Source of the DNA: Candidatus Thorarchaeota archaeon
Lineage (GTDB): Archaea; Asgardarchaeota; Thorarchaeia; Thorarchaeales; Thorarchaeaceae
Assembly: GCA_019057475.1 (NCBI GenBank)
Contig: DXJO01000008.1
Span: forward strand, 32,001 to 96,000
Reading direction: 5' to 3'
DNA: 64,000 bases
A program made the translations under genes and the position numbers. The notes beneath the pieces were generated by a model. It saw only the letters and a list, made by a program, of their open reading frames with translations. It was not told the DNA's origin and did no database searches. Shown one piece after another: positions 30,042-51,472 of this stretch; within the stretch, counting starts at the first letter, position 1; each line of letters starts with the position of its first letter.

Positions 30042-30258
30042 GGTCTCATTCGGGGCGGCCCCGTAACATTGGTCACCACACTCGGTGTCTTGGAATTCGA
30101 TGGGACGACAAATCGAATGCATCTCTCGACGTACTATGAGAATGTGTCTGTTGAAGAGATTGCAAGGAACACGGGATTCAAGCTGGATGTAACAAGGGCC
30201 AAGCAGGAGCCAAGTCCAACCCCCGAAGAGGTGGATGTTCTCAGAACCGATGTGGACC
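30042..30258 (+). pseudogene. gctB: Displaced 3' end of a second gctB allele
   Basis: 217 bp colinear with 28727-28943: GLIRGGPVTLVTTLGVLEFD...DVLRTDVD vs GLIRGGPVAVVTTLGVLEFD...DVLRTAVD. Confidence 0.9.
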
Positions 30259-30534
30259 GTTGCCCGAAACTTATACAATCCTGGACATCAATATCATTGA
30301 CTGATGTTCGGTTCCTGATTCATTGAGGTCTGCTCTGCAGATCCTACTGAATCTGCGACAAGTCTTACGTCCTCTCCACAGGCGTTTTCTGTCTCCGTCC
30401 AACTGGCGGCGACCAAATTACATGGAGGCCCTAGCACTCTGCATTGAACATCCACACCACTCAATCCTGAGCATATGTTATAACCACCTACAAAATGTCA
30501 AGAAGATTGTACAAGTTCTTGGCAACTGTTGCAT
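30259..30534. mobile_element. Non-autonomous ~275-bp insertion element, copy 1
   Basis: Closely similar to 50916-51190; ACC at both junctions (30256-58, 30535-37); imperfect inverted repeats 30256-30280 / 30505-30529. Confidence 0.8.
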
Positions 30535-30535
30535 A

Positions 30536-31431
30536 CCCTCTTTTAGGAGGGCCTTGTGACCTCATCCATATCGACCACCTCCAGACACGCTTTTGTATTC
30601 ATTGCGTAGATGGATTAAGAGAGGGAACAGCTATGCACGATTTTTCAGATTCTTCATTCTCCCCCAAGGAGCAGGAGATTCGAAATGGATTACGATTAAG
30701 ACTTCGCTTGGGCCTTCTCTTGACTATCTTCGCAATCGCGTTGTTCGCTTCTCTCAACCTGATTCACGGTTTGGTTCCAGAGGCGATTGAGCTCTTGCTG
30801 TTTGTAGCATTCATGGTGATGATCCTTGTCGGATTCCTTGTCAGCGGTTACTACGGACTAGGCCGTATCCTCTTCTTCCATAGTCTAGACCTGATCAGGA
30901 TGATTGCCCCTGACGAGATGGTGGTGACTAGTAGATATGGAGTAGTCAGAAGAGGATCTGTTTACATCTTGGCGAAATGGGGTGCAGATGTCCTCACGTT
31001 CATCGCGTTCTTGCACTCTGAACCAGCTCTTACCCCGAAGATCAAGATACCGTCAATTATCTGGCGTTGGGAACACACAATTCCCATTGACAGTCTGAAA
31101 GTCACGCGACGAGAAGGGCACTTCACTGTGCCGACTTCAGAGAATTCATTCATCAGTGGAGAAGGCATCCTCTATTCGCTAATAATCGATCCTAGTCGGC
31201 ATTCTAGACAGACATCGGGCTTCTCGAGAGACCAGCTCCTGCGTATTGTCGATACGCTTAGTGAGGAAACGACAAGCTATGGCAGTGGCAGAGTAGAATG
31301 ATATTTCCACAAAGGGTGGAGAGTTTGGTGTAACTTCCTGCAGCTTCATGATTCTCAGGGAAGAGGTGTAACTGCATTGAAACCACTCTCTCCCACCGTG
31401 GCATTTGATGCTGCAGTTACCAGTAGTGCCG
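30536..31431 (+). repeat. ~896-bp direct repeat copy A (pairs with 34399-35294)
   Basis: Same 3863-bp offset at the start (CCCTCTT), at the ATG and at the end (CAGTAGTGCCG). Confidence 0.92.
30633..31301 (+). CDS. Two-TM hypothetical protein, family member 2
   Basis: 222 aa from ATG 30633, same length as and highly similar to 34496-35164. Confidence 0.8.
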   Translation: MHDFSDSSFSPKEQEIRNGLRLRLRLGLLLTIFAIALFASLNLIHGLVPEAIELLLFVAFMVMILVGFLVSGYYGLGRILFFHSLDLIRMIAPDEMVVTSRYGVVRRGSVYILAKWGADVLTFIAFLHSEPALTPKIKIPSIIWRWEHTIPIDSLKVTRREGHFTVPTSENSFISGEGILYSLIIDPSRHSRQTSGFSRDQLLRIVDTLSEETTSYGSGRVE

Positions 31432-31534
31432 TTCTCTCTCAGTATTGAAACGGAGCATAACATGAAGTTCGAAACACTAAATAGCTCAAACAGACATATG
31501 AATAGTGTTGCAGATTCCAGGGTTGAAATTGCTG

Positions 31535-34393
31535 ATGCAGAAACAGGCTGCCAGTCTAAAGGTTGAAAAGAAGTCGACATATCTATGGGTTCTCTTCGCG
31601 GTTTGTCTCCTCACTCTTACGGTCCCACCAGCAGGTAGTCTGGCTACACGCAGTCATGAGAGCGACGATCAGAATCCCCTGATCTGGCAGGGCCCGGGCA
31701 TGCCGGTGCAGAGAAGCGCCCCCTTGGCGGAAAGGCCAAGCTTTGAGTTGCTGAGAAGCTCTCTGCGTCAGCGCAGCAGACTTGAAGCCACTGTATCACT
31801 ATCTGGGTTTCATGGAAGCAGCCCAGGACGTTCACTAAGGGCGACGCAGCAGCAGGCCTTGCCGACCAGCTCGATGCTGGCTATGGCTGGATTGACACCA
31901 CATGGTCCCATTGTCATACTTAGCGACTCGGATTTCGCGGCTCAAGGATGGCCCGGCTCAGGCACATCGGGTGATCCGTATAGGATTGAGCATCTAGCAA
32001 TAGACTTGAACAGCACAGATGGCAATTGTATCGAAATTCAGAGTACCAGTGCTCACTTCGTAGTGTTCAACTGCACGCTGACAGAGGCAACCGGTCTAGG
32101 ATACTCAGGCATCTATCTGAATGATGTGCAAAATGGACGACTCGAAGCCAACAATATCACTGGCAACGATATCGGCATTCTACTCAGGAACTCGAACCTC
32201 AACAACATTCTAAACAACGCCATCTCAAATCATAGCCGCGCTGGGGTCTACCTTGATGGATCCAGTGACAACACGATTCGGACAAACAATGTCAGCACCA
32301 GTTGGAGTGGACTCTACCTAGAATGGTCCACCAGCAATGTATTGAACAACAACTACTGCTACGACAACGAGTTTGGCATTGATGTCTACGGAGCCTCCAC
32401 AAGCAATTCAATAGTGAATAATACGTGTGTTTCTAACAACTATGGCATCTACCTGTTGCATATAACGGAGAATGCAATCATAGAGAACAACTGCTCTCAG
32501 AACAATGTGGGAATCCATGTCCTCGAGTCTAATTCGAACTCGATTGATACAAACATCTGCAACGAAAACGTCTATGGGGGTATTCTGGTCAATCTCTCAG
32601 TGTACAATGACGTTTCAGACAACTATTGTGGCTACAACACCAATTGGGCCGGCATAATCCTCTCAGCTTCGAACCACACTCGTGTGACAGACAATACATG
32701 CACAGGGAATCCAGATGGAATATGGCTAACAGCCAGTTCACAGAATGAGCTGCTGCACAACAACTGCACGTATAATGTCAATGGTATTCACATTCAGGAT
32801 TCTTCAGGAGACCAAATCGCCAACAACATCTGCAACAACAACACAGACACGGGCATGCTGATCGAAGGTGTATCGCTCTCCTTGAGAGTGGTCTACAACA
32901 ATACATGCAGCGACAATGGTATTATCGGTATCGTATTGATGCTCGGTGCCAATGCCACTGAGTTGAGCCAGAACGTCTGTTCAAGTAATGTGGTTAGTTC
33001 CCAGGCTGGAATACTCCTCATGGAGTCCTACAACAATACTGTAGATAGCAACGCATGTTACGGCAATCAGGACTTCGGAATACAAATGTTACAATCAGAA
33101 CTGACCATAGTGAAACGAAACAACATCACAGTCACCGGGGGGGTAGGTATCTTTCTTGAAGAATCAGTGAATAACACTCTTGCGGGCAACATATGCCATG
33201 ATATCTTCAACCCAGATTGGGACTCTGGCTATGCCATCTACCTAATGTATCTCTCTGATTTCAACCTAATTGAGGACAACCTTTGCTATGACAATCCATT
33301 CGGTATCTTACTTTTTCAAGCCAACAACAACACCGTCATCAACAACTTCTGTTTCAACAGTACGCACGTCCCTGACGTTAGTTCAGGAATAGCTATTGTT
33401 ATGGCATGGAACAATACAGTCACCAACAACAGGCTCCATAACAACACTGTAGGTGCATTCCTCTTAGACACAAATGGCAACACGATCTCATTCAATTCCC
33501 TCAGGGGAAACGAGTTCGGAGTATACCTTGAGGACGACTCTGCCAACAATACCATCTCATGGAATGTCTTCGAGAACAACACCGCAAATGGTTGGGATGC
33601 TGGGACGACCAATATCATCGATTACAACTTCTGGTCCAATTACACAGGGTCGGACGCAAATGGGGATGGGTTTGGAGATGTACCGCATCCGATTCAAGGC
33701 GATGCTGGCAACGCTGATCCTCATCCATTGATGTTTCATCCATTCCCACCTGAATGGGTTCAACCTCCTACAGACCAGGTCATCGAGTTCGGTGCCCACT
33801 TCGAGTACGAGCTTGAGGTCACATCCACTGCACCCTTTGAGTTGTGGGTCAACGATTCTGCGGCTTTCGCAATCGACGTCAATGAAACAATCGTAAGTCC
33901 AAGTGTTCTCCCTGTTGGAGTCTACCCGCTCGAGGTAAGAGCGATCAATATCTACGGATATGCAGCTAAAGGTGTCTTCACATTATTGGTTCAAGATACA
34001 ACTCCACCAACGGTGAATAGTCCCGATGACATCACTTACACTTCCGGAGAACCTGGCGCTCTGATAGAATGGAGCATTTCAGACCTAAGCTATCTCAGTT
34101 ACCGGGTTCTTAGAAACGGAACAGAGGTCGATTCGAGTGGCATAACTCTAACAGCGTATCAGGTCACAATATCAGTCGAGTATCTCGACCCCGGGGTTCA
34201 CAACTTCACTATCGTAGCGGTCGACGCTGAGGGCAACATAGCGACGGACACGGTCCTTGTCACGGTACTCCCAATCCCGTTCCTTGAGGCAATGCTTCCA
34301 TTCCTGATTCTGGGTCTGGCGGGAGTTGCAGTGGTTGTAGTGATACTCGTCCTGCTCAGGAAGCGAAAGCTACGTGGTGGAGAAAACAGCTAA
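31535..34393 (+). CDS. Membrane-anchored NosD/beta-helix surface protein with Ig-like modules
   Basis: PHGPIVILSD...WPGSGTSGDPY; many NNxCxxNxxGIxL coils; YNFWSNYTG.D.NGDGFGD.P; TM followed by RKRK. Start is approximate. Confidence 0.85.
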   Translation: MQKQAASLKVEKKSTYLWVLFAVCLLTLTVPPAGSLATRSHESDDQNPLIWQGPGMPVQRSAPLAERPSFELLRSSLRQRSRLEATVSLSGFHGSSPGRSLRATQQQALPTSSMLAMAGLTPHGPIVILSDSDFAAQGWPGSGTSGDPYRIEHLAIDLNSTDGNCIEIQSTSAHFVVFNCTLTEATGLGYSGIYLNDVQNGRLEANNITGNDIGILLRNSNLNNILNNAISNHSRAGVYLDGSSDNTIRTNNVSTSWSGLYLEWSTSNVLNNNYCYDNEFGIDVYGASTSNSIVNNTCVSNNYGIYLLHITENAIIENNCSQNNVGIHVLESNSNSIDTNICNENVYGGILVNLSVYNDVSDNYCGYNTNWAGIILSASNHTRVTDNTCTGNPDGIWLTASSQNELLHNNCTYNVNGIHIQDSSGDQIANNICNNNTDTGMLIEGVSLSLRVVYNNTCSDNGIIGIVLMLGANATELSQNVCSSNVVSSQAGILLMESYNNTVDSNACYGNQDFGIQMLQSELTIVKRNNITVTGGVGIFLEESVNNTLAGNICHDIFNPDWDSGYAIYLMYLSDFNLIEDNLCYDNPFGILLFQANNNTVINNFCFNSTHVPDVSSGIAIVMAWNNTVTNNRLHNNTVGAFLLDTNGNTISFNSLRGNEFGVYLEDDSANNTISWNVFENNTANGWDAGTTNIIDYNFWSNYTGSDANGDGFGDVPHPIQGDAGNADPHPLMFHPFPPEWVQPPTDQVIEFGAHFEYELEVTSTAPFELWVNDSAAFAIDVNETIVSPSVLPVGVYPLEVRAINIYGYAAKGVFTLLVQDTTPPTVNSPDDITYTSGEPGALIEWSISDLSYLSYRVLRNGTEVDSSGITLTAYQVTISVEYLDPGVHNFTIVAVDAEGNIATDTVLVTVLPIPFLEAMLPFLILGLAGVAVVVVILVLLRKRKLRGGENS

Positions 34394-34398
34394 GGCAG

Positions 34399-35294
34399 CC
34401 CTCTTCTGGGAGGACCTTGTGACCTCATCCATATCGACCATCTCCAGATACGTTTTTGTATTCATTTCATAAACAGATTAAGAGAAGGAACACCTATGCA
34501 CGATCTTTCAGATTCTTCATTCTCCCCCAAAGAACAGGAGATTCGAAACGGATTGCGATTAAGGCTTCGCTTGGGCCTTCTCTTGACTATCTTCGCAATC
34601 GCGTTGTTCGCTTCTCTCTACCTGATTCACGGTTTGATTCCAGTGGAGATGGCGATCACACTGTTTGTAGCATCCATGTTGATGATCTTTGTCGGAATCA
34701 TTGTTAGCGGTTACTACGGACTGGGCCGTATCCTCTTTTTTCATAATCTAGACCTGCTCAGGATGATTGCCCCTGACGAGATGGCGGTGACTAGTAGCTA
34801 TGGGGTTGTCAGAAGAGGATCTGTTTACATCCTGGCGAAATGGGGGTCAAATGTCCTTACGTTCATCGCGTTCTTGCACTCTGAACCAGCTCTTGCCCCG
34901 AAGATCAAAATACCGCGAATTATCTGGCGTTGGGAATACACATTTCCCATTGGCAGTTTGAAAGTCACCCGTCGAGAAGGACACTTCACAGTGCCGACTT
35001 CAGAGTATTCATTCTTCAGTGGAGAAGGCATCCTCTACGCGCTATTAATCGATGCCAGTTCGTATTCTAGACAGACATCGGGCTTCCCGAGCGACCAGCT
35101 CCTGCGTATTGTCGATACGCTTAGTGAGGAAGCGGCAAGCTATGGCAGTGGCAGAGTAGAATGATATTTCCCCCAAGGATGGGGGATTTAGTGTTACTTC
35201 CTGCAGCTTCATGATTGTCAGCGAAGAAGTGTAACTGCATCAGAATCCCTCTCTCCCACCATGGCATTTGATGTTTCAGTTACCAGTAGTGCCG
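34399..35294 (+). repeat. ~896-bp direct repeat copy B
   Basis: Aligns with 30536-31431; begins 5 bp after the NosD stop codon. Confidence 0.92.
34496..35164 (+). CDS. Two-TM hypothetical protein, family member 3
   Basis: MHDLSDSSFSPKEQEIRNGLRLRLRLG..., near-duplicate of 30633-31301. Confidence 0.8.
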   Translation: MHDLSDSSFSPKEQEIRNGLRLRLRLGLLLTIFAIALFASLYLIHGLIPVEMAITLFVASMLMIFVGIIVSGYYGLGRILFFHNLDLLRMIAPDEMAVTSSYGVVRRGSVYILAKWGSNVLTFIAFLHSEPALAPKIKIPRIIWRWEYTFPIGSLKVTRREGHFTVPTSEYSFFSGEGILYALLIDASSYSRQTSGFPSDQLLRIVDTLSEEAASYGSGRVE

Positions 35295-35621
35295 CTCGCC
35301 TCCAATCGCGTAAAGACCCCAGATAAGATCCAAGTATTCGCCTCTGGTCCCAAATGGTACACTGAACTCAATCTGTCCATTCTTAGTTTTCTTGGTGTAC
35401 CCGGTGTTCTCCACCAGCGATTCGATATCCCCGGCTTGCTCGATATTCGCTATTATTTCGACAGGTATCTTCCCGAGGTAGAAATACACACGTATTCCAT
35501 TAGGAAACTCGTAGTTCTCACCTATTGTCCAAGTTGCTCGACATCTATCAAGTTTCATCATTTTCCAATTATGAAGCACAACCTCGTTTCTCATTTCCTG
35601 TGTGACTTCCACAAGAACCAC
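35280..35621 (-). pseudogene. Hypothetical protein, probably decayed
   Basis: 113-aa ORF without a good start. Its end (RHYW*) and the continuation past the stop recur near 31417-31432. Confidence 0.4.
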
Positions 35622-35797
35622 CTACGCTGTGAGAACACGAAATCGCTGTTAAGTTATTGCTTGATTTCATTGGGTCTGGCGACCTATCCAGAATTATCAT
35701 TGGTGTTCAGCAATCAATGGACCGAGTATTGAGCATGATATCAATTGATAAGACAGTACCTGGATATGCTATGTGCATTTCCTTTGAGGTGAGATTC

Positions 35798-36370
35798 ATG
35801 CGTGGACAATGGATGATACTATCGGTGATTGTTGGAGTAGTGATGCTCATCACTGACATGAAGTATGGATGGCTATCCCTGTTCTTGGGTGGCTTCTCAA
35901 GTCTGCTTGTGATAGCTCTTGTCGTGGGAATCATTGCCGGAGGAGTAAAGGACGGGATTCTGAGTGTACTGGCTACTGAATTCCTAGGCGTTCTCGTGAT
36001 TACTCTCATTATGCCCTACGTGTTTCCTGAGTGGTGTTATATCTTGGTAGGATTCTTTCCGATCGACATGCTATTGGCGAGTGTTATAATTATTCAACAC
36101 AGTGCCACTCTTGGTACATTGGGGCTTCCATGGTATCTCGTGGGTGAGCATGGGCCAGAAGCCCTGGGATCGCTAATCATGGCTCCTTTCATCTTTGGCA
36201 CAGCCTTGGTGCTCGGCGGGCTCGGAGGGCACATCGGGCGAGTCATTAGACAGCGCTTCCTGGGGCCTGACATTCCCAGCAAAGCCGTGTCGCCAGGTAA
36301 GCCAATCGCTCAGGAACCGCAAGAAGAAGATGTCAGTCAGGGTGATTTTGCCTCTGATACAACCGAATGA
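35798..36370 (+). CDS. Multi-pass membrane protein
   Basis: GAGGTGA RBS before ATG 35798; about five hydrophobic segments; acidic tail. Confidence 0.7.
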   Translation: MRGQWMILSVIVGVVMLITDMKYGWLSLFLGGFSSLLVIALVVGIIAGGVKDGILSVLATEFLGVLVITLIMPYVFPEWCYILVGFFPIDMLLASVIIIQHSATLGTLGLPWYLVGEHGPEALGSLIMAPFIFGTALVLGGLGGHIGRVIRQRFLGPDIPSKAVSPGKPIAQEPQEEDVSQGDFASDTTE

Positions 36371-36574
36371 TCCTGTTGGCTCCTTGTGCTCATGCGGCCT
36401 ATTTCGGAAGTCAGTCCAAGCTTCAGCAATGGAGGGATTCCTTATCGAAAACGCTTACAAGCGATCTGATAAGACGCGGCAACCTGTCCTAGGAGTTCAT
36501 TAGAAGACATGAATTCGCAGTCCAGACATGAATACAATGGGTTTCTCGTGAGAGTTCATTGACGGCAACTGAAA

Positions 36575-36691
36575 CTAGGTCTTCTCCAAGGTCCTTAGGA
36601 CGGACTGGATGCTTTCCTCCAATGACTTCATCCTTAGTTGAAGAGCTAATACTTCCTCCATTAGGAGAGCAAGCTTCTCTTCGATCTCCAT
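36575..36691 (-). CDS. Putative 38-aa coiled-coil peptide (not in ORF track)
   Basis: MEIEEKLALLMEEVLALQLRMKSLEESIQSVLRTLEKT*; heptad pattern; GGGGAA upstream. Confidence 0.4.
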   Translation of the reverse strand: MEIEEKLALLMEEVLALQLRMKSLEESIQSVLRTLEKT

Positions 36692-36765
36692 TTCCCCGTC
36701 AGAAGTCAACGGGAAGCCACTTGAATCCCTGTCAGCTTTCTTCCACTTTGGCATTTTCTTCCGTC

Positions 36766-38145
36766 CTACGCTTCTTTTTGAAAATACAGAATGCTCTCTC
36801 TCAGGGCAAATGTGCGTCTGATTCCAGACCGTCTTGTGCGGTCAATCTCTATGCCAGTTGGGCGGTATCCAATCCTCTGTGCTATCATCATGGTAATCAA
36901 ATCGGTTGGGACATAAACGTCGAGGATCAGCGAGTCCCCTACTACCCACGCCACTCTGGCCCCGTCATTAATGGACTCGTACATATTGCTGAGAACCATA
37001 TGAATGTCCTCAAAGTATTTCCGAAGTAGAATCGGATAGTCCTTTCTTCTGATACCGATTCTCTCTCTCATTCTTGGTTTGCTGGCCGCAATAATATAGT
37101 CAAGCCAATCAATCGAAAGGAGGGGGGTTTGTTCTGCATATGACTTCATCATTGATCTAGAAACGTTGTCACACAACACCATGCGATCGCGGAGTTTGCT
37201 AAGGTCCTTTGTGGAGGCCGCATCTTCCATCCAGCCTATTTCTAGCTTGTAGTTGCCAACGTAGTCGAAGCTATTGAGGTACGGGGGCGAGGTTATGACT
37301 GCATCAACTGCGATATCCTCAGGCAAAGCAAATGCCTTAGAGTCTTCACAGAACGAAATGGACTTTCCTTGTTTCTCCACCTTCGTCTGCACGAACCGAA
37401 GGTCGCTGATAATTTCCTTGACCTTCTCTTCAAACAGCTGGAATGGTAGTTTTGGGTATAGATTCTTGGATTTCTTCTTGTCGTAACCGATTGACGGTGA
37501 CCTTCTCAAGTTGCTCGATGGCAGAAGAATGCTCGCGAACGCCAGCTCGAAGTAGCATCTAAGGCGCGGGTTATCCACCAATCCTACCCGTTCCTTTATC
37601 CTTAGGATATTCTCAAGTATCTCAGGTTGAAATTGTCTCTCTGTTTCGAGGAAGGCTGGAGGCTCCGTTGATGCCTTCTTTGAGAAGTTCATCGCATCAT
37701 ATTGGTGTTGAATCTCTCTCGGATTCGCATCCCATGATGTCTTTGCCAAGAGCACTCTGAAGATTGTAGGATTGATTTCGATACCAACAGAGTCTACACC
37801 TTTCATCATAGCAGCAACGTTAACGGTGCCAGATCCCGCAAAAGGGTCAAGTATCCGGTGGTCGGAAGATAGTCCGAACTGCTCGATTATGTCATAGACG
37901 AAGCTCTCAGAGAAACCCTCTAGGTAGCTGGTCCAACGATGAATCGGCCTCTGCTTGTTATTCGCGAAGTTCAAACCACGGTTCAACAGCCGGTGAGATA
38001 TCTTTACGTCGGGAAATCTAAGCTTGAACTCATGCAGGTAGGTATCAGGCGTCTTGAAGTGATAGCCGATTCCCTCCCAAAGGGCGTAGTTGTGACTGTA
38101 AAACGACTCGGCATCACTAACTAACGAGTTCATGTTGTTGACCAT
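36766..38145 (-). CDS. Amino-DNA methyltransferase (motif I before SPPY; likely m4C, alpha class)
   Basis: HRWTSYLEGFS, LDPFAGSGT, GIEINP, ITSPPY, WVVGDS. Confidence 0.85.
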   Translation of the reverse strand: MVNNMNSLVSDAESFYSHNYALWEGIGYHFKTPDTYLHEFKLRFPDVKISHRLLNRGLNFANNKQRPIHRWTSYLEGFSESFVYDIIEQFGLSSDHRILDPFAGSGTVNVAAMMKGVDSVGIEINPTIFRVLLAKTSWDANPREIQHQYDAMNFSKKASTEPPAFLETERQFQPEILENILRIKERVGLVDNPRLRCYFELAFASILLPSSNLRRSPSIGYDKKKSKNLYPKLPFQLFEEKVKEIISDLRFVQTKVEKQGKSISFCEDSKAFALPEDIAVDAVITSPPYLNSFDYVGNYKLEIGWMEDAASTKDLSKLRDRMVLCDNVSRSMMKSYAEQTPLLSIDWLDYIIAASKPRMRERIGIRRKDYPILLRKYFEDIHMVLSNMYESINDGARVAWVVGDSLILDVYVPTDLITMMIAQRIGYRPTGIEIDRTRRSGIRRTFALRESILYFQKEA

Positions 38146-38281
38146 ACTGTTGTTCTACTAGACTATCTGTCCTATTTGATGATTTGAGATATGCCATTTA
38201 AACCTCTAAGTTGCACCAGCATATGGCGATTTCGTACGATTTATTAAATGCAGGCAGCGTCTGTGCTTTGGCGGGTTGAAG

Positions 38282-40648: not shown

Positions 40649-40662
40649 CATACTACTGCGAT

Positions 40663-41561: not shown

Positions 41562-41654
41562 AAATTTGGCGGTGCCGCTGCGTTAGAGAGTTCATCTGGG
41601 GCGGGGAGCACATTCACCTTCACCCTGCCAAGAACTATGCCCCCTGAAGCATAA
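41562..41654 (+). pseudogene. 3' remnant of a histidine kinase (HATPase_c end)
   Basis: KFGGAAALESSSGAGSTFTFTLPRTMPPEA* resembles the GG...ES..G.GSTFTFTLP terminus of histidine kinases. Confidence 0.65.
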
Positions 41655-41759
41655 GAATGAGAACGCATTGACCTGTCTGAGCATTTGGAGCACAGCTAAT
41701 TTGACAGGCATGCATTATTCAAGGATGCCAAGAATTGCTCTCTGAGGACTGGATTCAGT

Positions 41760-42605
41760 TTGAACCAAGTATCGGTCACGACCGCACCATTGAATCGTCT
41801 TGTACAAGGGATGTATTATGATATCAAGTCCACAATTGACATAATGAAACGAATATGGGCTGAGTCAGCAGTCGACGGGTTTGAGTTTCAGAAGCTGGCA
41901 GAGTGGGAGAGTGATGGCCCACCTCGAGATGACAACAAGGAATTCACAAGACGGGATGCGTGGAGGGCCGCACCCAAGTACACGGTCAAGGAACTCTCGA
42001 AGCTGCTCAAACAATCTAATGTCCCAATTCTGTCGGTGCACGCGAACAGGGACGTGGGCATTTGCCTTTGCTCAGATGACTTGAGGGAGATTGCACGAGG
42101 GAAGGATATGATACACGAGAGCCTAGCGCTGGCTCAGAATGTTGGTGCTGGTGTGGCAGTATTCCACCTTTGGGACACTTGGAAAGCAGAGTTTAGTCCC
42201 GCCTTCCTACGAAACCTTATGAGCGACATCGTTTCTCGATACCCGAATGTTGTTGCCGCTGTAGAGAACGTGCCAACACATCTTGTGGGCCGTACTCCTT
42301 TCGATCTCGTGAAAGAGTTCGAATATGTAACGCTTGACACTCGATGGGCGGCAATGTATGATGAACTGGACAAGTTCGAGAGCATCAAGGACAGAATCAT
42401 CAACGTTCATCTAAGAGGGCACCTGGAGAACAAGTGGTGGGCTATTGACAACGCTCCATTCACATTTGATGAGGCTCTGGCCAAGATACAGGACGGCTGG
42501 AGGTACAGAGGTCTCTTAACCCTAGAACCCGAGCGGGGACCAAGTGATGTGACGTGGGAGGGCCTGCTGGTTGCGTTGAAGAATCTAAGGAACTGTAAAC
42601 ATTAA
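41760..42605 (+). CDS. Xylose-isomerase-like TIM-barrel protein (AP_endonuc_2 family)
   Basis: DGFE, LSVHA, VFH, AVENVP, TLDT, NVHL, TLEP metal-ligand pattern. Confidence 0.7.
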   Translation: MNQVSVTTAPLNRLVQGMYYDIKSTIDIMKRIWAESAVDGFEFQKLAEWESDGPPRDDNKEFTRRDAWRAAPKYTVKELSKLLKQSNVPILSVHANRDVGICLCSDDLREIARGKDMIHESLALAQNVGAGVAVFHLWDTWKAEFSPAFLRNLMSDIVSRYPNVVAAVENVPTHLVGRTPFDLVKEFEYVTLDTRWAAMYDELDKFESIKDRIINVHLRGHLENKWWAIDNAPFTFDEALAKIQDGWRYRGLLTLEPERGPSDVTWEGLLVALKNLRNCKH

Positions 42606-42701
42606 CCCGGGTGTCATGGGTGCACAGAGGTTATGTGTTGACGATATCTTTCTCTGCGCTTGAACAATCCACGCCCACTAGACAGGATGCGACCGTTCTC
42701 G

Positions 42702-43247
42702 CTATGCTCTGACCTTGTCAACCTCGATAGCTCGTCTGACAAGATCTTTGAACATCAAGTCGACGTTGTCACCCGTTTTGGCGGATGTTTCGTAGTACAT
42801 GGCATTCCACATCTTCTGGACCATTTCCCCGGCCTCGGGCGGCACAAATCTATCCTTTCTGTCAATCTTGTTTGCAACTACGGCGACCACTGCATTTGGG
42901 CAAACAGCGATGAACTTGTCGTACCATTCGGTGACTTCGATGAACGTTCCTGGTCGAGTCACATCATAGACAATGAATGCCATGCTGGCACCAGCCATGT
43001 AGCGCCGCCTCAACATGCTGAATCTTGTCTGACCCGCAAGATCCCAGAAGACCACATTGGCACTGATGTGTTCGCCATCTGGCATATCAACGTCTACTGC
43101 CTTCATGGCAATCGTAGTGCCAATGGTCGCCTTGTAGGTCTCACTAAACGTGCGGTCGGTGAACCTCTTGATGCAACTAGTCTTACCTACACCTCCAGCT
43201 CCCAAAGCGACAAGCTTGAACTTGTGAGTAAGCACCCGTCGGGTCAC
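42702..43247 (-). CDS. Rab/Ras-like small GTPase
   Basis: G1 GAGGVGKT, G2 YKATIG, G3 WDLAGQ, G4 NKID, G5 ETSAK; no C-terminal Cys motif. Confidence 0.93.
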   Translation of the reverse strand: MTRRVLTHKFKLVALGAGGVGKTSCIKRFTDRTFSETYKATIGTTIAMKAVDVDMPDGEHISANVVFWDLAGQTRFSMLRRRYMAGASMAFIVYDVTRPGTFIEVTEWYDKFIAVCPNAVVAVVANKIDRKDRFVPPEAGEMVQKMWNAMYYETSAKTGDNVDLMFKDLVRRAIEVDKVRA

Positions 43248-43384
43248 TCTATTTCCCTTCTATGACTTCTAAACATGATTGCCGTACAAGTATTAGGGTT
43301 TACCGCCTGCGTTCCGCTTGGCCTGCAGAGGGTTTTTCACGTCCCTAAACATCACAGTGAACTACCAGTATCAGGTGTGCGACA

Positions 43385-44200
43385 GTGAATCTCCCTCGAC
43401 TTCTGTTCAGATATCCCGGCGGCAAATTCTATGCTCTCAAGCTGCTGAGACCCTTCTGGCAGAACACCCCTCACGATGAATACCGGGAGGTTATGGTTGG
43501 GGGTGGTGCTGTCTTCTTCGACAAGCCAAAGGTTAGGCACAACTGGCTGAACGACAAGCACGAGGATCTGATGACTACCTATAGAACAGTTGCTGACCCG
43601 GAACTGAGAGGGCGGCTTGTGGAGCTGTTTGAGAAAGAGGTTGCCACCAAGGAACGACACGCAGAGATGAAGGAGTTCATTCCAAGCAATGATTTCGATA
43701 TTGCACTGAAATTCTTCTATCTGAACCGGACTTCATTCAGCGGCAAGACTAGGTCACCATCGTGGGGCTGGCGTCCCGTTAGAAGTCTTCCACCCAATCG
43801 CTGGAAAGAGAGAATCAGACCGTGTGGTGAAAAACTGGAAGATACAAAGATGACATGCTTAGACTTCGAGGATGTCATCATTGCTCCCTCCCTTGGAGCG
43901 TCTACACTGCTGTTCGTGGACCCTCCTTACTTTCTCGCCAAACAAGAGAATCACTATTCCGAATCGTTCTCAGAGAACGATCACTACCGACTAGCAGCAG
44001 TGCTTGAGAAGACATCGCACAAGTTCTTCCTAACTTATGATGATTGCAAAGAGATTCGCGAGCTGTACAGTTTTGCAAGGATTAGCCAGAATAGGTTTCT
44101 CTATCGCATAGATAACTCAAGAAACCGGGGAGGAAAACGAAAATATGGGAACGAGCTTGTAATAACCAACTATGACCATGAGAAGGCCTTGGAATGTTGA
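43385..44200 (+). CDS. Dam/D12-class DNA adenine methyltransferase
   Basis: FRYPGGK, EVMVGGGAVF, LND, FFYLNRTSFSG, VDPPY, ELVITNY. Confidence 0.9.
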   Translation: MNLPRLLFRYPGGKFYALKLLRPFWQNTPHDEYREVMVGGGAVFFDKPKVRHNWLNDKHEDLMTTYRTVADPELRGRLVELFEKEVATKERHAEMKEFIPSNDFDIALKFFYLNRTSFSGKTRSPSWGWRPVRSLPPNRWKERIRPCGEKLEDTKMTCLDFEDVIIAPSLGASTLLFVDPPYFLAKQENHYSESFSENDHYRLAAVLEKTSHKFFLTYDDCKEIRELYSFARISQNRFLYRIDNSRNRGGKRKYGNELVITNYDHEKALEC

Positions 44201-44985
44201 CCACAACATTCACATTCAAGTTTGCTGAGCCTTCTTGCTACGAGGCTGACCAGAAGCAAGGAGGAGCTTGCTGGTCATCTGCAAGTAACAGAGGAAAAAG
44301 AAAAGGGCGCGGTAGAGTGTTGGCGGAAAGAGGGCTGTAAACAGCTGCTGCAAAGTTGGACATATCTGGACAATTTCATTGTGGGCTTCATATAGACCAA
44401 TTCGACATTGATCTCCGAGGAATATGACACACCTGTGAAGGTTCCTCACGGAGTAGTCCAGTGCTGTTTTCTGGACGTACTAGACTTCGGTGTCAAACTT
44501 TGTACAACCTACAATGAACGGTTCGTATGGAGGGAAGGTATCGCGTGTAACGGGAGGAAAAAAGAGCCCGCCAACCCGCGCCACTGTCCATGCATGCCTG
44601 TGAGGCCATTTAAGCATCCATGAAAAACCACGGGGAGCGCAAGAGCAAGGTCAGACGCAACAGATCTACACAATGCATGGAGCCCCCGGCGAGTGCGGTG
44701 TCAAGCAGCTGGTCGAACTGTGAAAGATAATGCTTCAAGTGTCACTCATTCGCTTTTCCCAGCCAAGTCCTGCCAAGAGCAGTTCACAAAATCGGGACGA
44801 TACACGATAAATCGAACAGATACAACGAAGATTCGATTATATTATTTCATGGTAAATCGTTATATGCCTGTTCAGTCAGCTGCTTTCAGAGTCGCCCCAG
44901 CAGAAAATTGCAAGGGAATAACACTGCGACGAGGGCTGGATATCCAAGCTGAATGGACCGATTGCCAATCCAAAGGTGTATGCAG

Positions 44986-47900
44986 ATGAGAATCAGTAGA
45001 AATTCCGTGGGTTTTGCATTCCTGATGACATTGTTACTTGTGTCAGGCTTTCTTTCGCAAATGGGGACTGCATCGCCTAATCTGAGTACTGTAGGAGCGA
45101 TGCCGCACGCAATAGATAATATGCTGAGCCCTGACGCATCGGGTCCTGAAGCAGTGTATGTCACATCCGATCTCCCCTCATCGACAACCGGCACAGGATT
45201 GTTATTGCATGTAGTCGAATATGCTAATGGAACCTTTGTCGAACGCAACACAAGAGCAAACGAATCAACCACTTTCTATCCTCAGAGGTTCGATATTCCA
45301 CAGGGGTGGCACACCACTCAGATCACAGCAATAAGCTCTAAGATGTATCATCTCAGAGATTGGGTACAGAACGGAAATTTCTCAGCCATCACCGGCTGGT
45401 CGTACAACGAGGATCCCAGTCCCACTGGTGTTCTAACAGAGGATTACGATGGCATCAATGACTGGATTACGATTGTTCGTGAATCTGGTGGAAAAGTGCA
45501 ATACGACTATTGGGGCTCGTGGAATCAAACAGTGCAAGTCATCGAGGGTGGAGCTGCCTCTGCAACGCTGAATGTCACTTACAAAATCGATACCACAACA
45601 GGCACCAACGGGCAAACTGCAGAACCGTATCTCTTCGTCAATGGTTCAATGTATGAACTACCATCCGGAGGAAGAAGATTCAGCAGCAATCAAGACTGGA
45701 CTACCTATTCCGTTGAGCTACCGCTTTCTGAATTCACCTTTCCAGGCGACCTAGAAGTGGCGTTGGGCATTCGAGGCTGGAATGGAACTCAGTTCCAGAC
45801 AAAGGGTACCTTAACTTGCGACAATGTCACGTTGACTCTACGGACCTCAAGATTCGTCGAGGCAGTTGACCTGAGAACACGCGACAAAGATGACCCCCCA
45901 AACACGGTGCAGTTCACAACGGGAGCAGGTGGAAAAGGCTATGCCACCCTCTCAGGCAACTGGACAAATTATGTAGAGTTAGAGTTTCTAGCCAATGAAA
46001 CGGGTACTGAGTTCAGTCTGGACCTCTTCATGCATTTGATGCGAAATAACAATCTTGATACCAATACATACACTGTCGCAAACGGCACTGATGCAACTTG
46101 GGACTGTGCTTTTACCGCGCGGGAGATGGCTTACCCATTTACATCCCACTACTTCAATGTGTCAATTCCTCATGATTGGACTCTTGAATCGGTGTATGAT
46201 GCATACAATGACCTTCAGCTGTCTGGCACAACCTACTACAATGCCACATACTACGGGGCCGAATCAATACTCGTATGCGATGTCTATGGTACTGGTGTAA
46301 GCGGAACGCCCCACTACGGCACCTGGACCTTTTCGTCGACCGCCCCCAACTACGGCAAGGCCCTCTCGTCATGGGGTGCACCGGACGGATACTGGACTGA
46401 AACGATCAACTTCTATCCGGGCTCAGATCTCCGGGTCAATGTCACATTCAGCGATGGAATAGAATCCCCCCCGACTTCTCCGGGTAACGGAACGCTGAAT
46501 CTCTACAATGTGGAAACACAACTTGTATACACCGAGTCTGGAGGTGCTCTGGACGTTTCTGGCTTACACATTTACCAGAATGGAACAGGCATATCAAACA
46601 TCACAATTCAACCCTCGTGGCTTGCTGGATCAATCACAGCAATCGCTTCATGGGGCAACGGAACGTCGGTGGGAGAAATCAGGAAGCAGTTCTTCATCTA
46701 TCACAGAACTGAACTAGAGATAGAGGCAGCAGTCTATTACGCGTTTCGAGGGGACACAATCTCCGTAAGAGTCAAGTATGTTGACTCTGAAACAGGACTT
46801 GGTATTCCTGCAGCCTCGCTCTACTATAACTGGACCTATGGTTCAGACGCCATGGGGTATGCTGGTAACGGATGGTACGCAGGATATGTGGATACCTCAA
46901 TGGCCATGATAGGAGATTATCCAGTCACGGTGAACGCATCCAAAGAGTATAACGACTTTGCACTGACAACTGGCATCACAATCAAAATCCAAGAGAGAAC
47001 CACGCTCTTCTCACCTAGGAGCCTGCAAACCCCAACCACTGACTATGAGATCCCATGGGGGAACTCGAAGGTCATCTACTTGGCCTACGAGGATACCATT
47101 CAAATGAATCCTGTGGCCCTGAGTGCCAATCCAGGCAGTCCTGGGAGTCCAGATGTGACTGACACGTACACTTCCAACAATGTCTACGCGACGGTGACCA
47201 GTGTAGGCAATGAAATCTCTCTTACAGTTGAAACCAATGTCACCCCTTACGGTTTCCTGACCGCTGACCTCACTTCGATGTCCTACAAGGCTGAGGGTAA
47301 GTTTAGCGTCGCAGTTAGCACCGGATCTGTTTATGCCTATAACTTCAGCAGTGGCTCCTGGGTGATAATCATTGATTCATACCAACCAGTTGTCGACACC
47401 ACTCTCTCATGGAAGACCCTCAAGCCAAGTGATTTCATCTCTACAGGCGGTATTGTGCGGGCTCGGGTCAATGCAACCCATTCTGCATCCTTTAGCTTCG
47501 ATCTCGACCTCTTCGATTTTGTGGCCAACCGCCCTATCGATGACACTGAACCAAGTGTTTTGATTAAATCAGATTGGCCAGCACAGTCTGTCGTTGGCAC
47601 TCAAGTAGGACCCGTCTACAACGCATCTCTGAATATCTGGCAGGTCACACTGAACACGAGGGATGTTGTACCTGGTGAATACACAGTACTCATTGAGGCC
47701 TCAGCCACTGGACACCAGAGCAAATCCCTAGAGTTGACAGTTGCTCTAAAAGCCCATCAGAGCCGGGTGTCGGTGTATCCACTCTCAGAAACTCCTTGGA
47801 GCTGGAAGACATGGATTAACGTTTCAATTACGGACACAGACAACTCGTCAATGGTGCTTTCGGAGAACAACATCTCATTGATTCAAGTGGAATCCGCTTA

Positions 47901-50508
47901 TGGTATTCAGTTTTTCACCTCATCCAATTGGACGTACAGCGACTCAAGTGGATATGCTGAAGTTGCTCTCCATCTTGACACAAGCGCATGGGACATCGGT
48001 TCTCACTCTGTGACAGTCACAGTGACTACATCAGGCACAGGTCTATCCAAGTTCTTTAATGATCCATCATTACAGCATGTGGATATTGGAATCAGGCGGG
48101 TCAGGACAGGACTCTACGTTGACAGCTCCATAATTTCGGTGAACTGGAGCGATCAGGTGAATCTTGCAGCTTGTTATGATAACCTAGATATAGGTGAACT
48201 GGTGCTTGGCGCAACCGTAAAGGCATCATTGAGTGGCCTATCATTTGATCTTACTTCGAATGGTACAGCGTACACAGCTCACATTGACACTGCACCGCTG
48301 GATGTTGGAACCTACATCATTACCATAACGGCCAACAAGACGAACTTCGAAACCAAAATCATTCAGGTCACTCTTGTTGTGTTTGTTCTTCAGACTGTGA
48401 TGGAGAGTGCAGATGGATTGTATTCATTCTCTGTCGTAAGTGGAGAACATGTCGACCTGTTAGTATACTATTACGAGCTGGCATTTGGACTTGGCGTAGG
48501 CGATGCCACTGTGTCATACGTCTGGGACCTCGGCAGCGGGCTGCTTGTCACAAATGGTACAGCTGGATACTACACGGCAACAATCAATGCAACGGCTTAT
48601 GTGAACATATACACGATCTCCGTGAGAGCCAACAAAACGAACTACGCCACAACCAGCATCTACTTCAGTCTCGATGTGGGCCTTGTTGAAACCGAGCTAT
48701 CATCGGTCGGTGAGCCTACTCTCCGAGTCGTCTTTGGTGAAATGGCATTCATGGTGGTCAACTACACCAGCAAGAATTTGGAAGAACCTGTCACAGGTGC
48801 CTCCTTGCAGTTTAGGTTTGGTGACACAAACTACACAGGCATCCTAACTGAGTCCCAACCAGGAATCTACAACGCCACGATTGACTCCTCTCAACTGCAC
48901 GCCGGGACGTTCAGTTTCTATATTGTGGCGACGAAGGCCGGATACAAGGCTGGTACTCTCGCTCGCCTCTTGGAAGTAGCCCAGATTGACACAATTCTTA
49001 CCTCTACACATCCACCGCTGACTGTTGTCTATGAGTCAATTGCCACATTCTTCTTCAACTACACAGATGTATATTACGGGCTTCCAATAGAGAATGCTAC
49101 ACTTGAGTACACATGGTTGGGTGGGACGGGCATCCTCGATGAGATGGGAAACGGAATCTACAGCACTGAGTTTGACAGCGTTCTCGTGGGTTTCGGACTG
49201 CACAATGTCCATGTGAGCGCTTCCAAGAGCAACTATGTGTTCAGAACTGCATCGTCGACGCTCGAGGTACGCGTCATAGCCGCCGAGGTCATTGTTGATG
49301 AGTACTACACGATTCCTATTGGCGACGCCTTGACAATCCATGTTATCTACAATGATACATCCTACAACAGATTGATCAATGATGCCACAGCTCTGGCAGT
49401 ATGGAGCTACGGAAACGTAGACCTCATTCCCACGGGAGATGGCCAATACTCATTCACAATACCTGAAACCCTTGCAATGGACACCTTCTACGTGACATTC
49501 ATCCTCAGCAAAGCTAACCACGAAAGTGTCAGTGTGCGCGTAACAATTATCGTGCGAGAGATCGCCACTCATCTCTCAACACTCAGTGGCGACAACTTCG
49601 TGGGTGCCACAATCGGTGAGTTAGTCCAGATAACCATGGTCTACACTGATACCGACCACAACATACCCATATCAGGCGCCATACTCTCTGTAACACAAGA
49701 GAGTGGAATTATTGATGAGAGCGATTGGACAGTTGTTGAGGGTCTTGTCCCTGGCCAGTATGTCATATCATTCGTCGTACCGGTTGACGAGCAGTTCAGC
49801 ATACTGGTAAGTGCTCAGAACGGGGAGAACTACAATGCACAGGAGATTACTATTGCAATAGTCGCTACTCCAGTTACAGTGGATCCGCTGACGTCGATGA
49901 TGACCTTATTCGGGAGTCTCGGTGTGATATTCTTCCTTGTTTGCGCTCTTCTCTATGTCAAGATCTTCAGCGTTCCGATAGTGATTCGTCGTCTGAATAG
50001 AATGATCAAGGTAATGTCCAAGGGCGGGATACCCAAGGTCCCGGAGGCCCCAGGTAGAGATGAGATAATCCAAGATATTATCAACACAGGCCTGGCCCCG
50101 GTCAACATATACAAGTCACTTGATGAGATTCCCAAGGAAACTATCGAGCTCATGATACCTGAAACTGAAGCGCTGCTTCAGGAACTGGCGGAGATAACAG
50201 GTCTCACTGAGGATGACATAGCAGCACTCCATTCTGACCTTCTGAGAATGAAGCCTAGTGAGAGGCCCGGGTTCCTAATGGAGGTCATTCGTCAGGAGAA
50301 AGCCAGAAGGTCAAAAATCCTCGCTGAGAAAAAGGAGGAGTCAAAGAGAAGAGCAATCACCAAGGCCGAGCTTGAGGATGTGCGGGCTAGGCTTGAGGCC
50401 ATGGGCTTCGATGAAGGTCAGCTTGAACTGATTATGGAAAATGCGAAGAATCTAACCAAGGCTGAGGTAGATGCTCTGTTGGATAGCATGGGGGACTCCA
50501 CTAGGTAG
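44986..50508 (+). CDS. Giant (~1840 aa) single-pass surface protein with Ig-like repeats and a charged cytoplasmic tail
   Basis: Signal peptide; repeated G.Y.I.I.A.K.NY modules; TM near LGVIFFLVCALLYVKIF; about 180-aa helical Glu/Lys-rich tail. Confidence 0.85.
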   Translation: MRISRNSVGFAFLMTLLLVSGFLSQMGTASPNLSTVGAMPHAIDNMLSPDASGPEAVYVTSDLPSSTTGTGLLLHVVEYANGTFVERNTRANESTTFYPQRFDIPQGWHTTQITAISSKMYHLRDWVQNGNFSAITGWSYNEDPSPTGVLTEDYDGINDWITIVRESGGKVQYDYWGSWNQTVQVIEGGAASATLNVTYKIDTTTGTNGQTAEPYLFVNGSMYELPSGGRRFSSNQDWTTYSVELPLSEFTFPGDLEVALGIRGWNGTQFQTKGTLTCDNVTLTLRTSRFVEAVDLRTRDKDDPPNTVQFTTGAGGKGYATLSGNWTNYVELEFLANETGTEFSLDLFMHLMRNNNLDTNTYTVANGTDATWDCAFTAREMAYPFTSHYFNVSIPHDWTLESVYDAYNDLQLSGTTYYNATYYGAESILVCDVYGTGVSGTPHYGTWTFSSTAPNYGKALSSWGAPDGYWTETINFYPGSDLRVNVTFSDGIESPPTSPGNGTLNLYNVETQLVYTESGGALDVSGLHIYQNGTGISNITIQPSWLAGSITAIASWGNGTSVGEIRKQFFIYHRTELEIEAAVYYAFRGDTISVRVKYVDSETGLGIPAASLYYNWTYGSDAMGYAGNGWYAGYVDTSMAMIGDYPVTVNASKEYNDFALTTGITIKIQERTTLFSPRSLQTPTTDYEIPWGNSKVIYLAYEDTIQMNPVALSANPGSPGSPDVTDTYTSNNVYATVTSVGNEISLTVETNVTPYGFLTADLTSMSYKAEGKFSVAVSTGSVYAYNFSSGSWVIIIDSYQPVVDTTLSWKTLKPSDFISTGGIVRARVNATHSASFSFDLDLFDFVANRPIDDTEPSVLIKSDWPAQSVVGTQVGPVYNASLNIWQVTLNTRDVVPGEYTVLIEASATGHQSKSLELTVALKAHQSRVSVYPLSETPWSWKTWINVSITDTDNSSMVLSENNISLIQVESAYGIQFFTSSNWTYSDSSGYAEVALHLDTSAWDIGSHSVTVTVTTSGTGLSKFFNDPSLQHVDIGIRRVRTGLYVDSSIISVNWSDQVNLAACYDNLDIGELVLGATVKASLSGLSFDLTSNGTAYTAHIDTAPLDVGTYIITITANKTNFETKIIQVTLVVFVLQTVMESADGLYSFSVVSGEHVDLLVYYYELAFGLGVGDATVSYVWDLGSGLLVTNGTAGYYTATINATAYVNIYTISVRANKTNYATTSIYFSLDVGLVETELSSVGEPTLRVVFGEMAFMVVNYTSKNLEEPVTGASLQFRFGDTNYTGILTESQPGIYNATIDSSQLHAGTFSFYIVATKAGYKAGTLARLLEVAQIDTILTSTHPPLTVVYESIATFFFNYTDVYYGLPIENATLEYTWLGGTGILDEMGNGIYSTEFDSVLVGFGLHNVHVSASKSNYVFRTASSTLEVRVIAAEVIVDEYYTIPIGDALTIHVIYNDTSYNRLINDATALAVWSYGNVDLIPTGDGQYSFTIPETLAMDTFYVTFILSKANHESVSVRVTIIVREIATHLSTLSGDNFVGATIGELVQITMVYTDTDHNIPISGAILSVTQESGIIDESDWTVVEGLVPGQYVISFVVPVDEQFSILVSAQNGENYNAQEITIAIVATPVTVDPLTSMMTLFGSLGVIFFLVCALLYVKIFSVPIVIRRLNRMIKVMSKGGIPKVPEAPGRDEIIQDIINTGLAPVNIYKSLDEIPKETIELMIPETEALLQELAEITGLTEDDIAALHSDLLRMKPSERPGFLMEVIRQEKARRSKILAEKKEESKRRAITKAELEDVRARLEAMGFDEGQLELIMENAKNLTKAEVDALLDSMGDSTR

Positions 50509-50573
50509 AACCACATTCTCCGGAGTAATACTGAAGGCTTGACGTCGACCAGAATGCCCCCAACTTGTGACAC

Positions 50574-51472
50574 ATGAGTTCTTTGATGGCCTTGGCGGAT
50601 TGCAACCCAACAATTGGCTACATTGACGACCTACTATTGACCTATTCTCTCGACATAGCTCTCTACGAACTTGGCTCTCTCGGCTCTGCATTTGTGGCTG
50701 AGCTGCGCAAATGGGCCAGCTGCCAGTACACTCTGGACCTCAATGAGGGGGTCTCAGATAAGAGAATCAAGTCTGTCACTCTCTTACTGGGCTCAGCACT
50801 CAACTCCACAATCCATATCACAAGCTCCCTGAATCTCAACTCCACAGTCATCTTCTCGAACAATGCTCGTTTATCCTATGACAATCAAAGCTTCAAGTAC
50901 GATGCTTCAGGAACCGTTGCCCGAAACTTGTACAATCTTGGACATCAACGTCCTTGACTGATGTTTGGTTCCTGATTCATTGAGGTCTGCTCTGCAGATC
51001 CTACTGGATCTGCGACAAGTCTTGCGTCCTCTCCACAGGCGTTTTCTGTCTCCATCCAACTGGCGGCGACCGAAGTTCATGCAGGCCCTAGCAATCAGCA
51101 TTGAACATCCACACTAATCAATCCTGAGCAGTATGTTATAACCACCTACAAAATGTCTAAGAATGTACAAGTTCTTGGCAGCTGTTGCATACCCTCCGCT
51201 TTGGATTTGGTGAAGATGTAAGACTCAGCCGGTGGTTTCGCGTTTGGATTGACACAGACATGGCAGCCGTATACATTGACCTACTCGACAGTCATGGTGG
51301 TAAGATCACCTTTTCCTACCTGACAGACTACCTCATAGCAGACATTGACGGTTGGTACTCCTGTGGTGCCCGTATGTATTCCGCCGAGGTCAAACTCACG
51401 CCACCTGTAGTTGATGTTGCGGTCAGCACGAATACTGCTGTGGTGGTTCTGTACGACTGGAACTTCTTTTGA
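50574..51472 (+). pseudogene. Hypothetical gene interrupted by element copy 2
   Basis: ORFs 50574-50957 and 51185-51472 fuse in frame (KYDASG-T-LRFGFG) when the element plus one ACC is removed, giving about 206 aa. Confidence 0.7.
50916..51190. mobile_element. Non-autonomous ~275-bp insertion element, copy 2
   Basis: ACC at 50913-15 and 51191-93; same ends (GTTGCCCGAAACTT ... TGTTGCAT) as copy 1; internal hairpin GCAGATCC-TACT-GGATCTGC at 50994-51013. Confidence 0.8.

What the first reader, a model, noticed from the sequence alone, without database searches (positions are those of the whole stretch)
30256..51196. Two copies of a ~275-bp non-coding insertion element with sub-terminal inverted repeats and a shared target (IS110/IS1111-like, non-autonomous)
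Seen: 30259-30534 and 50916-51190 are closely similar, share no intact ORF and have the same ends (GTTGCCCGAAACTT... and ...TGTTGCAT). Both are bracketed by ACC, and both reconstructed empty sites contain ACCCTC (GTGG-ACC-CTCTTT and CAGGA-ACC-CTCCGC). In copy 1 the left end ACCGTTGCCCGAAACTTATACAATC and the right GATTGTACAAGTTCTTGGCAACTGT are inverted repeats (20/25 match). The right repeat stops short of the end, so the repeats are asymmetric and sub-terminal. A circular form would place the two arms around TGCAT with the ACC crossover off-centre. Known: short duplicated cores, target specificity and sub-terminal inverted repeats characterise IS1111-group IS110 elements, whose non-coding ends encode guide RNAs. 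Inference: a transposase-less derivative mobilised in trans, possibly little more than a structured RNA plus ends.
Basis: partly seen in the sequence, partly recalled or inferred. Interest (0 to 1): 0.85.

Follow-up and report, generated by a model that had tools for sequence, protein, structure and literature searches.

The report
Gene-less IS607 guide-RNA mini-transposons
These are two of many copies of a tiny jumping element in an Asgard archaeon that has lost its genes but keeps the transposon ends and the guide RNA of a DNA-cutting enzyme (TnpB) encoded elsewhere in the genome; the general type is known, and it is not the IS110 type first proposed.

Summary
The repeat is real but is not IS110/IS1111-like. 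Read on the minus strand, both copies are ~277-bp internal deletions of a 1.33-kb tnpB-only element that occurs in the same Thorarchaeota genome. At 40 insertion sites the right junction is always GG and the target is RGG|G-type (R-G-G-G, then mostly Y). The proposed 3-bp core is present at only 14/40. Offset sub-terminal inverted repeats plus GG termini are published IS607 features. A relative carries the full tnpA-tnpB version, and the genome has IS607 serine tnpA genes but no DEDD or Y1 transposase match. The mini-element keeps the left end, a likely promoter and a ~157-nt omegaRNA scaffold with covariation support and a weak RAGATH-18 match. Its scaffold carries half as many private mutations as its left end (p=4e-4). 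The element's first base copies the target's base more often than chance (25/40, p=0.0006). Both fit TnpB-guided retention in trans, which is inferred, not shown. Copy 2 is a clean insertion into a 206-aa gene. Copy 1 sits on a ~150-bp deletion, so its reconstructed empty site is chimeric. This scan reported the same family before on other DNA of this genome.

The parts
30257..30537 (-). Copy 1: mini-element (277 bp) with its two GG core dinucleotides (30536-30537 left, 30257-30258 right)
30536..30540 (-). Copy 1 target motif / predicted TAM (GAGGG) abutting the left end
   Evidence: family target R-G-G-G at 40 sites; TAM role inferred from PMC11061315 and 10.1101/2023.11.20.567912
30484..30535 (-). 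Copy 1 left end, with the sub-terminal repeat arm (core 30505-30517) and ~10-bp-phased TTG(G/T)ACA motifs; predicted TnpA binding sites
   Evidence: 40/52 identical in register to the left end of IS607 tnpA elements of the genus; binding inferred from PMC6188088
30478..30483 (-). TATA-like hexamer of the parent tnpB promoter (inferred)
   Evidence: position and variants; function not tested
30425..30444 (-). Retained tnpB start codon (30442-30444) and the deletion junction where ~1.05 kb of tnpB was lost
   Evidence: the fused frame is out of the tnpB frame and often stopped
30257..30413 (-). Copy 1 omegaRNA scaffold (3' end of tnpB plus right end): 5' hairpin, RAGATH-18-like nested stems (30312-30382), 3' hairpin, predicted pseudoknot to the terminal CAAC
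30259..30288 (-). Copy 1 right-end repeat arm, 9 bp closer to the core than the left arm; also forms the 3' hairpin of the RNA
30241..30256 (-). Copy 1 predicted guide (right flank); flank is the end of a duplicated CoA-transferase beta-subunit fragment
   Evidence: guide role inferred
50914..51193 (-). Copy 2: mini-element (276 bp) with its two GG cores (51192-51193 left, 50914-50915 right)
51192..51196 (-). Copy 2 target motif / predicted TAM (GAGGG)
51136..51141 (-). Copy 2 TATA-like hexamer; retained tnpB start codon at 51099-51101
50914..51070 (-). Copy 2 omegaRNA scaffold
50898..50913 (-). Copy 2 predicted guide (right flank), matching the empty allele next to the TAM
   Evidence: inferred
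50574..51472 (+). Host ORF interrupted by copy 2; removing the element plus one core dinucleotide restores 206 codons, colinear with an uninterrupted homologue in G006:C26

Best explanation
Both copies are non-autonomous IS607-family mini-elements that arose by internal deletion of a tnpB-only element. Shown: the anatomy is left end, remnant of the tnpB start, omegaRNA scaffold and right end, inserted at R-G-G-G targets with only the GG present on both sides. Inferred from characterised IS607 systems: a serine TnpA supplied in trans binds the phased sub-terminal motifs, excises the element as a dsDNA circle over the GG core and integrates it at new GG targets. The best candidate is the resident tnpA family whose left end aligns with this one. 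Inferred: the retained promoter makes an omegaRNA whose guide is the right flank. TnpB from the intact 1.33-kb copies loads it and cuts empty alleles (TAM plus flank), and repair from a filled allele restores the copy. The family is old in this genus and may now be largely immobile in this genome, because the matching tnpA here is frameshifted.
For: The 1.33-kb parent has the same ends and a 404-aa TnpB with intact RuvC D-E-D. Its best NCBIfam hit is IS607_TnpB at 342.8 bits, cut-off 350. Six tnpB copies have no stop codons and pN/pS is 0.18-0.34. Right core GG 40/40; left core GG 39 and 36 of 40; position -4 is purine in 40/40. The copy-2 empty homologue is colinear with no extra duplication. 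An autonomous relative G012:C57 (1861 bp) has IS607 tnpA over the cut-off, TnpB 68% identical, a GAGGG target and the same last 16 nt. IS607 tnpA genes occur in the genome, with no DEDD or Y1 match. [quoted passage not shown] RNA structure: 88.8% of cells paired, 21 of 44 pairs with two-sided changes, 0/500 shuffles, slid controls 30-48%; RAGATH-18 is the top hit in 8 of 14 loci, below its cut-off. Private mutations 0.31 per column in the scaffold vs 0.64 in the left end, p=4e-4, with no codon-position bias. The element's first base equals the target base in 25/40 sites vs 16.4 expected, p=0.0006.
Against: No tnpA was found between these exact ends. The two tnpA genes in this genome look degenerate: C53 is frameshifted at 177 aa vs 216 aa in G005, and C19 has no HTH match. 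The TnpB falls just short of the IS607_TnpB cut-off, and the RAGATH-18 scores (25-28.5 bits) are below gathering (44.9). Lower private variation could be inherited from unsampled parent copies by gene conversion; 682/1081 site pairs fail the four-gamete test. Single-base target carry-over could also come from relaxed TnpA strand exchange (fig. S6G of 10.1101/2023.11.20.567912).
Confidence: 0.88

Rival explanations
1. Same IS607 identity, but the mini-elements are inert passengers. They were once moved by TnpA, their RNA is not used, and its conservation only reflects copying from tnpB-bearing parents.
For: Copies are ~89% identical on average, and six sites are shared between genomes, so the insertions are old. 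The local tnpA is frameshifted. Extensive mosaicism and chimeric RNAs between families. At two orthologous sites a 276-bp form faces a 321- or 344-bp parent-derived form.
Against: Private alleles are halved in the scaffold without codon bias. Scaffold pairwise distance is 0.064 vs 0.145 in the left end and about 0.2 at tnpB synonymous sites. Target bases are carried over at the TAM-side junction, up to 3 nt in L179 and 11 nt in the related C53 element.
Confidence: 0.3
2. IS110/IS1111-group non-autonomous element with a bridge/seek RNA.
For: Offset sub-terminal repeats, short core, target preference and a structured interior.
Against: The parent encodes TnpB. No DEDD match in the genome. The core is GG, not a 3-bp ACC. 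The interior is the tnpB tail and omegaRNA. Target flanks beyond +3 show no consensus that a fixed target loop would impose.
Confidence: 0.01
3. IS200/IS605-type (Y1 HUH TnpA) PATE-like derivative.
For: The TnpB scores nearly as well on IS200_TnpB (333.8 bits), its best natural solved relatives are ISDra2 TnpB, and the RNA overlaps the tnpB ORF as in IS605 elements.
Against: No Y1 transposase in the genome. GG on both junctions and a G-rich target rather than an AT-rich one. The closest autonomous relatives carry serine TnpA.
Confidence: 0.02
4. The family has been domesticated as a host library of guide RNAs (defence or regulation).
For: The scaffold is under apparent constraint, tnpB is under purifying selection and some sites persist across species.
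Against: Guides are simply the insertion flanks. None of 12 has a TAM plus 12-nt seed match elsewhere in the genome. No family copy was found in viral contigs. Copy 2 disrupts a host gene.
Confidence: 0.04

Closest known systems
IS607 family (IS607, IS1535, ISC1926; PMC6188088) and CboIStron TnpA/TnpB (10.1101/2023.11.20.567912)
   Same: GG at both termini and in the target, no further target duplication, imperfect repeat at unequal distances from the two ends, phased short motifs, G-rich TAM-like target, TnpB RNA ending in CGG at the right end.
   Different: Encodes no protein; no intron. Asgard host. Target R-G-G-G-Y rather than TGGG. TnpB and RNA resemble one IS607 lineage (G012-type) while the left end resembles another (C53/G005-type; the two TnpAs are 38.5% identical).
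IS607 TnpB with RAGATH-18 reRNA (ISFba1; PMC11061315)
   Same: RAGATH-18-like nested stems, pseudoknotted scaffold; GAGGG is one of the two TAMs reported there.
   Different: Rfam score below gathering. Here the RNA overlaps the last ~42 codons of tnpB, whereas that paper describes reRNA as independent of the coding sequence.
Standalone omegaRNA loci of OMEGA systems (summarised in PMC10691335)
   Same: Mobilised, protein-less omegaRNA units in the same genome as effector loci, able in principle to act in trans.
   Different: This one is IS607-type and archaeal. It comes with population evidence (constraint, target remnants) bearing on their role, which that paper calls unknown.
IS1111-group IS110 elements (from own knowledge)
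   Same: Sub-terminal repeats, short core, circular intermediate, structured non-coding RNA.
   Different: No DEDD recombinase. The RNA guides a nuclease against the empty site rather than a recombinase to the target.

Membership tests
IS607 family | GG at both termini and in the target, no other duplication | tested here: met
IS607 family | [quoted passage not shown] | tested here: met
   9-bp offset, 25/35; definition in PMC6188088
IS607 family | tnpB of IS607 type in the parent | tested here: inconclusive
   Best model IS607_TnpB 342.8 vs cut-off 350, IS200_TnpB 333.8 vs 425; the TnpB of a true IS607 relative also misses the cut-off (338.3)
IS607 family | Serine TnpA with N-terminal HTH associated with the element lineage | tested here: met
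   G012:C57 and G036 tnpA-tnpB with the same RNA and right terminus; same-genus tnpA elements share the left end. Absent from the mini-element and its 1.33-kb parent (non-autonomous).
IS607 family | TnpA-catalysed excision to a dsDNA circle | not testable with these tools
TnpB omegaRNA (OMEGA) | Structured scaffold ending at the right end, followed by a variable flank | tested here: met
TnpB omegaRNA (OMEGA) | Expressed, bound by TnpB, directs cleavage | not testable with these tools
   no reads, no bench
Rfam RAGATH-18 (RF03064) | Score at or above gathering threshold 44.9 | tested here: not met
   25-28.5 bits: a relative, not a curated member
IS110/IS1111 | DEDD recombinase in a parent with the same ends | tested here: not met
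   parent encodes TnpB; no PF01548 match in the genome
IS110/IS1111 | Extended target consensus specified by an RNA target loop | tested here: not met
   consensus limited to R-G-G-G-Y; positions +4 onward show no consensus
IS200/IS605 (PATE) | Y1 HUH TnpA and a target motif on one side only | tested here: not met

The most novel reading that the evidence does not exclude
The protein-less copies are selected parasites of two different larger IS607 lineages at once. They use sub-terminal sites matched to the resident tnpA (which itself travels with a giant TnpB and cargo), and an omegaRNA matched to an unrelated small TnpB. They keep themselves in place by TnpB-guided cutting of empty alleles, which leaves target bases at the TAM-side junction. 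That would give standalone omegaRNAs a demonstrable selfish role and show end-swapping between IS607 lineages in Asgard archaea.
Probability: 0.4. Interest if true: 0.55.

Novelty: new member of a known kind. Interest (0 to 1): 0.33.

Why it matters
It corrects a misassignment: this is not an Asgard bridge-RNA system. Standalone omegaRNAs are known, but their biological role is described as unknown (PMC10691335). This family supplies about 40 natural sites with a predicted TAM, ready-made guides, an intact compact TnpB and two sequence signatures (scaffold constraint, target carry-over) that make the in-trans retention idea directly testable. It also breaks assemblies (24 of 112 contig ends) and disrupts or deletes host sequence. 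I found no paper describing IS607 mini-elements in Thorarchaeota, but the library searched is incomplete.

Tried and rejected
DEDD and Y1 transposase searches were empty. No family copy in viral contigs. The sigma-70 scan found nothing and does not cover archaeal promoters. A small ORF from the retained ATG is open in copy 2 but stopped in copy 1 and in many others, so it was rejected as a conserved peptide. The 9-nt match between the interior and the copy-2 flank (note e1-5672345) was rejected as chance: the interior is fixed scaffold and other targets do not match. IStron-like splicing was considered: the element has no room for a group I intron, most reconstructed sites are not inside long ORFs, and a bulge-helix-bulge was not evident by eye (not formally tested). 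No empty orthologue of copy 1 with contiguous flanks was found in six congeners. RNAalifold did not recover the CCUG/CAGG stem or the 3' inner hairpin; these rest. PMC8929163 was not held. Searches were input slips.

Full report
Observation. The two stretches exist and are ~92% identical. Between their CC dinucleotides they span 30259-30535 and 50916-51191. The quoted inverted repeat is 20/25. On the family consensus the arms match 25/35 at a 9-bp offset from the two cores and at most 11/35 at any other offset. The element is multi-copy in this genome and in all six congeners searched. The host group is Candidatus Thorarchaeota.

The parent. Several hits split at query position ~170 around a ~1.05-kb insert. 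These are 1.33-kb elements with the same ends and one minus-strand ORF of 404 aa. It matches HTH_OrfB, OrfB and the TNB domain. Its best NCBIfam model is IS607_TnpB (342.8 bits, cut-off 350) and its solved relatives are TnpBs. The true orientation is therefore the window's minus strand. The mini-element keeps ~105 nt of left end, including the tnpB start codon, joined to the last ~170 nt, which encode the TnpB tail. Nearly all mini-copies share one junction. Six tnpB copies from four assemblies have no stop codons, the RuvC D-E-D is intact in five, and pN/pS is 0.18-0.34.

Junctions. At 40 independent sites from genomes and metagenomes, the right junction is GG in 40/40. The left junction has G in 39 and 36 of 40, preceded by G (34) and a purine (40). 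The base after the right GG is T18/C18/A2/G2. For copy 2, removing the element and one core restores a 206-codon ORF, colinear with an uninterrupted homologue in G006, so the insertion is clean. For copy 1 the flanks are ~150 bp apart in the syntenic region of G004. It therefore marks a deletion between two G-rich targets, by recombination of two insertions or a one-ended event; I cannot tell which.

Family. [quoted passage not shown] 10.1101/2023.11.20.567912 shows serine-TnpA excision to a dsDNA circle and TnpB cutting of the empty joint. GAGGG is a reported TAM of RAGATH-18-linked IS607 TnpBs (PMC11061315). The genome has no DEDD or Y1 match but has two IS607 tnpA genes. In G012 an 1861-bp element has IS607 tnpA, a TnpB 68% identical to this one, a GAGGG target and the same last 16 nt; G036 has a similar one. 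Its left end, however, resembles the mini-element's only in the first dozen bases. The left end of the same-genus tnpA elements (C53 here, G005:C145) matches 40/52 in register (counted). Those elements carry a 713-763-aa TnpB-like gene instead, and the two TnpAs are 38.5% identical. I infer that the resident C53-type TnpA is the mobiliser. It is frameshifted here (177 aa) and intact in G005 (216 aa).

The RNA. The minus strand folds better than shuffles (z -3.8), partly because of the end repeats. RAGATH-18 is the top Rfam hit but sub-threshold. On 20 diverse right ends, including two bacterial ones, a 44-pair model has 88.8% of cells paired and 21 pairs with two-sided changes. No shuffle reached this, and slid controls gave 30-48%. 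I drew the model from these sequences, which favours it; RNAalifold independently recovers four helices. A pseudoknot from the first loop to the terminal CAAC is paired in 20/20 but three of its four pairs never vary; pseudoknots are essential in the ISFba1 RNA. The right flank would be the guide. TnpB can process its own transcript to omegaRNA (PMC10278001), so a transcript from the retained promoter is a plausible source. The promoter itself is inferred from a TATA-like hexamer.

Is the RNA used? Two indirect signals. First, among 29 protein-less copies the scaffold has 0.31 private alleles per column against 0.64 in the left end (p=4e-4), with no codon-position bias. Pairwise distance is 0.064 vs 0.145. 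Second, the first base of the element equals the target base after GG at 25/40 sites (16.4 expected, p=0.0006). In L179 three bases are replaced up to an in-register microhomology, and the related C53 element carries 11 target bases at its left end. Caveats: copies are mosaic, so constraint may be inherited from parents, and TnpA with mismatched cores can also alter junction bases. No guide has a second TAM-plus-seed match in the genome.

Age. Mini-copies average 89% identity, six sites are shared between genomes, and orthologous copies are about as diverged as their flanks. At two shared sites the two species hold different internal forms (276 vs 321 bp; 276 vs 344 bp), implying ectopic conversion or replacement. 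Young identical copies may be hidden, since 24 of 112 contig ends fall in the element.

Verdict. This is a real, non-autonomous IS607/TnpB derivative carrying a standalone omegaRNA: a new member of a known kind, not IS110-like. I put family identity at about 0.95 and active in-trans use of the RNA at about 0.6. The scan had already reported this family on other DNA of the same genome; those notes are leads, not support.

Noticed in passing
L038:671-9290 (G000:C53): 8.6-kb IS607 element with frameshifted tnpA, a 1822-aa ORF with no Pfam match and a 763-aa TnpB-like ORF; its left junction repeats 11 bases of the right flank after GG.
   Followed up: partly
L039:2668-4944; L040:3701-5842: Congener elements with the same left end, a decayed tnpA and 758- or 713-aa TnpB-like ORFs.
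   Followed up: no
G000 C35, C52, C9, C41, C15, C8; L140-L159: A second mini-element family shares the right end and RNA fold but has a different interior; chimeric RNAs between the families exist (L143, L144, L157-L159).
   Followed up: partly
G000:C54 (two sites) vs L104 and L121: Orthologous insertion sites hold different internal forms in different species (321 vs 276 bp; 276 vs 344 bp).
   Followed up: partly
window:28196-35263: Tandem duplications around copy 1: CoA-transferase beta gene plus a duplicated 3' fragment, and paralogous ~222-aa ORFs, with 30537-31400 repeated at 34400-35263 (89%) across a 962-aa NosD/beta-helix gene.
   Followed up: partly
L017, L152-L155, L169 (G014): Another Thorarchaeota genus has its own multi-copy family with a related RNA and a left end starting with the same 14 bases.
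   Followed up: no
L046:2315-2461; L047:3610-3747: Bacterial MAGs carry solo tnpB genes with the same RNA fold and a right end also finishing in CAACGG.
   Followed up: partly
L003:1468-2091 (G000:C19): Second IS607-type tnpA over the NCBIfam cut-off but without an HTH match or the shared left end.
   Followed up: no
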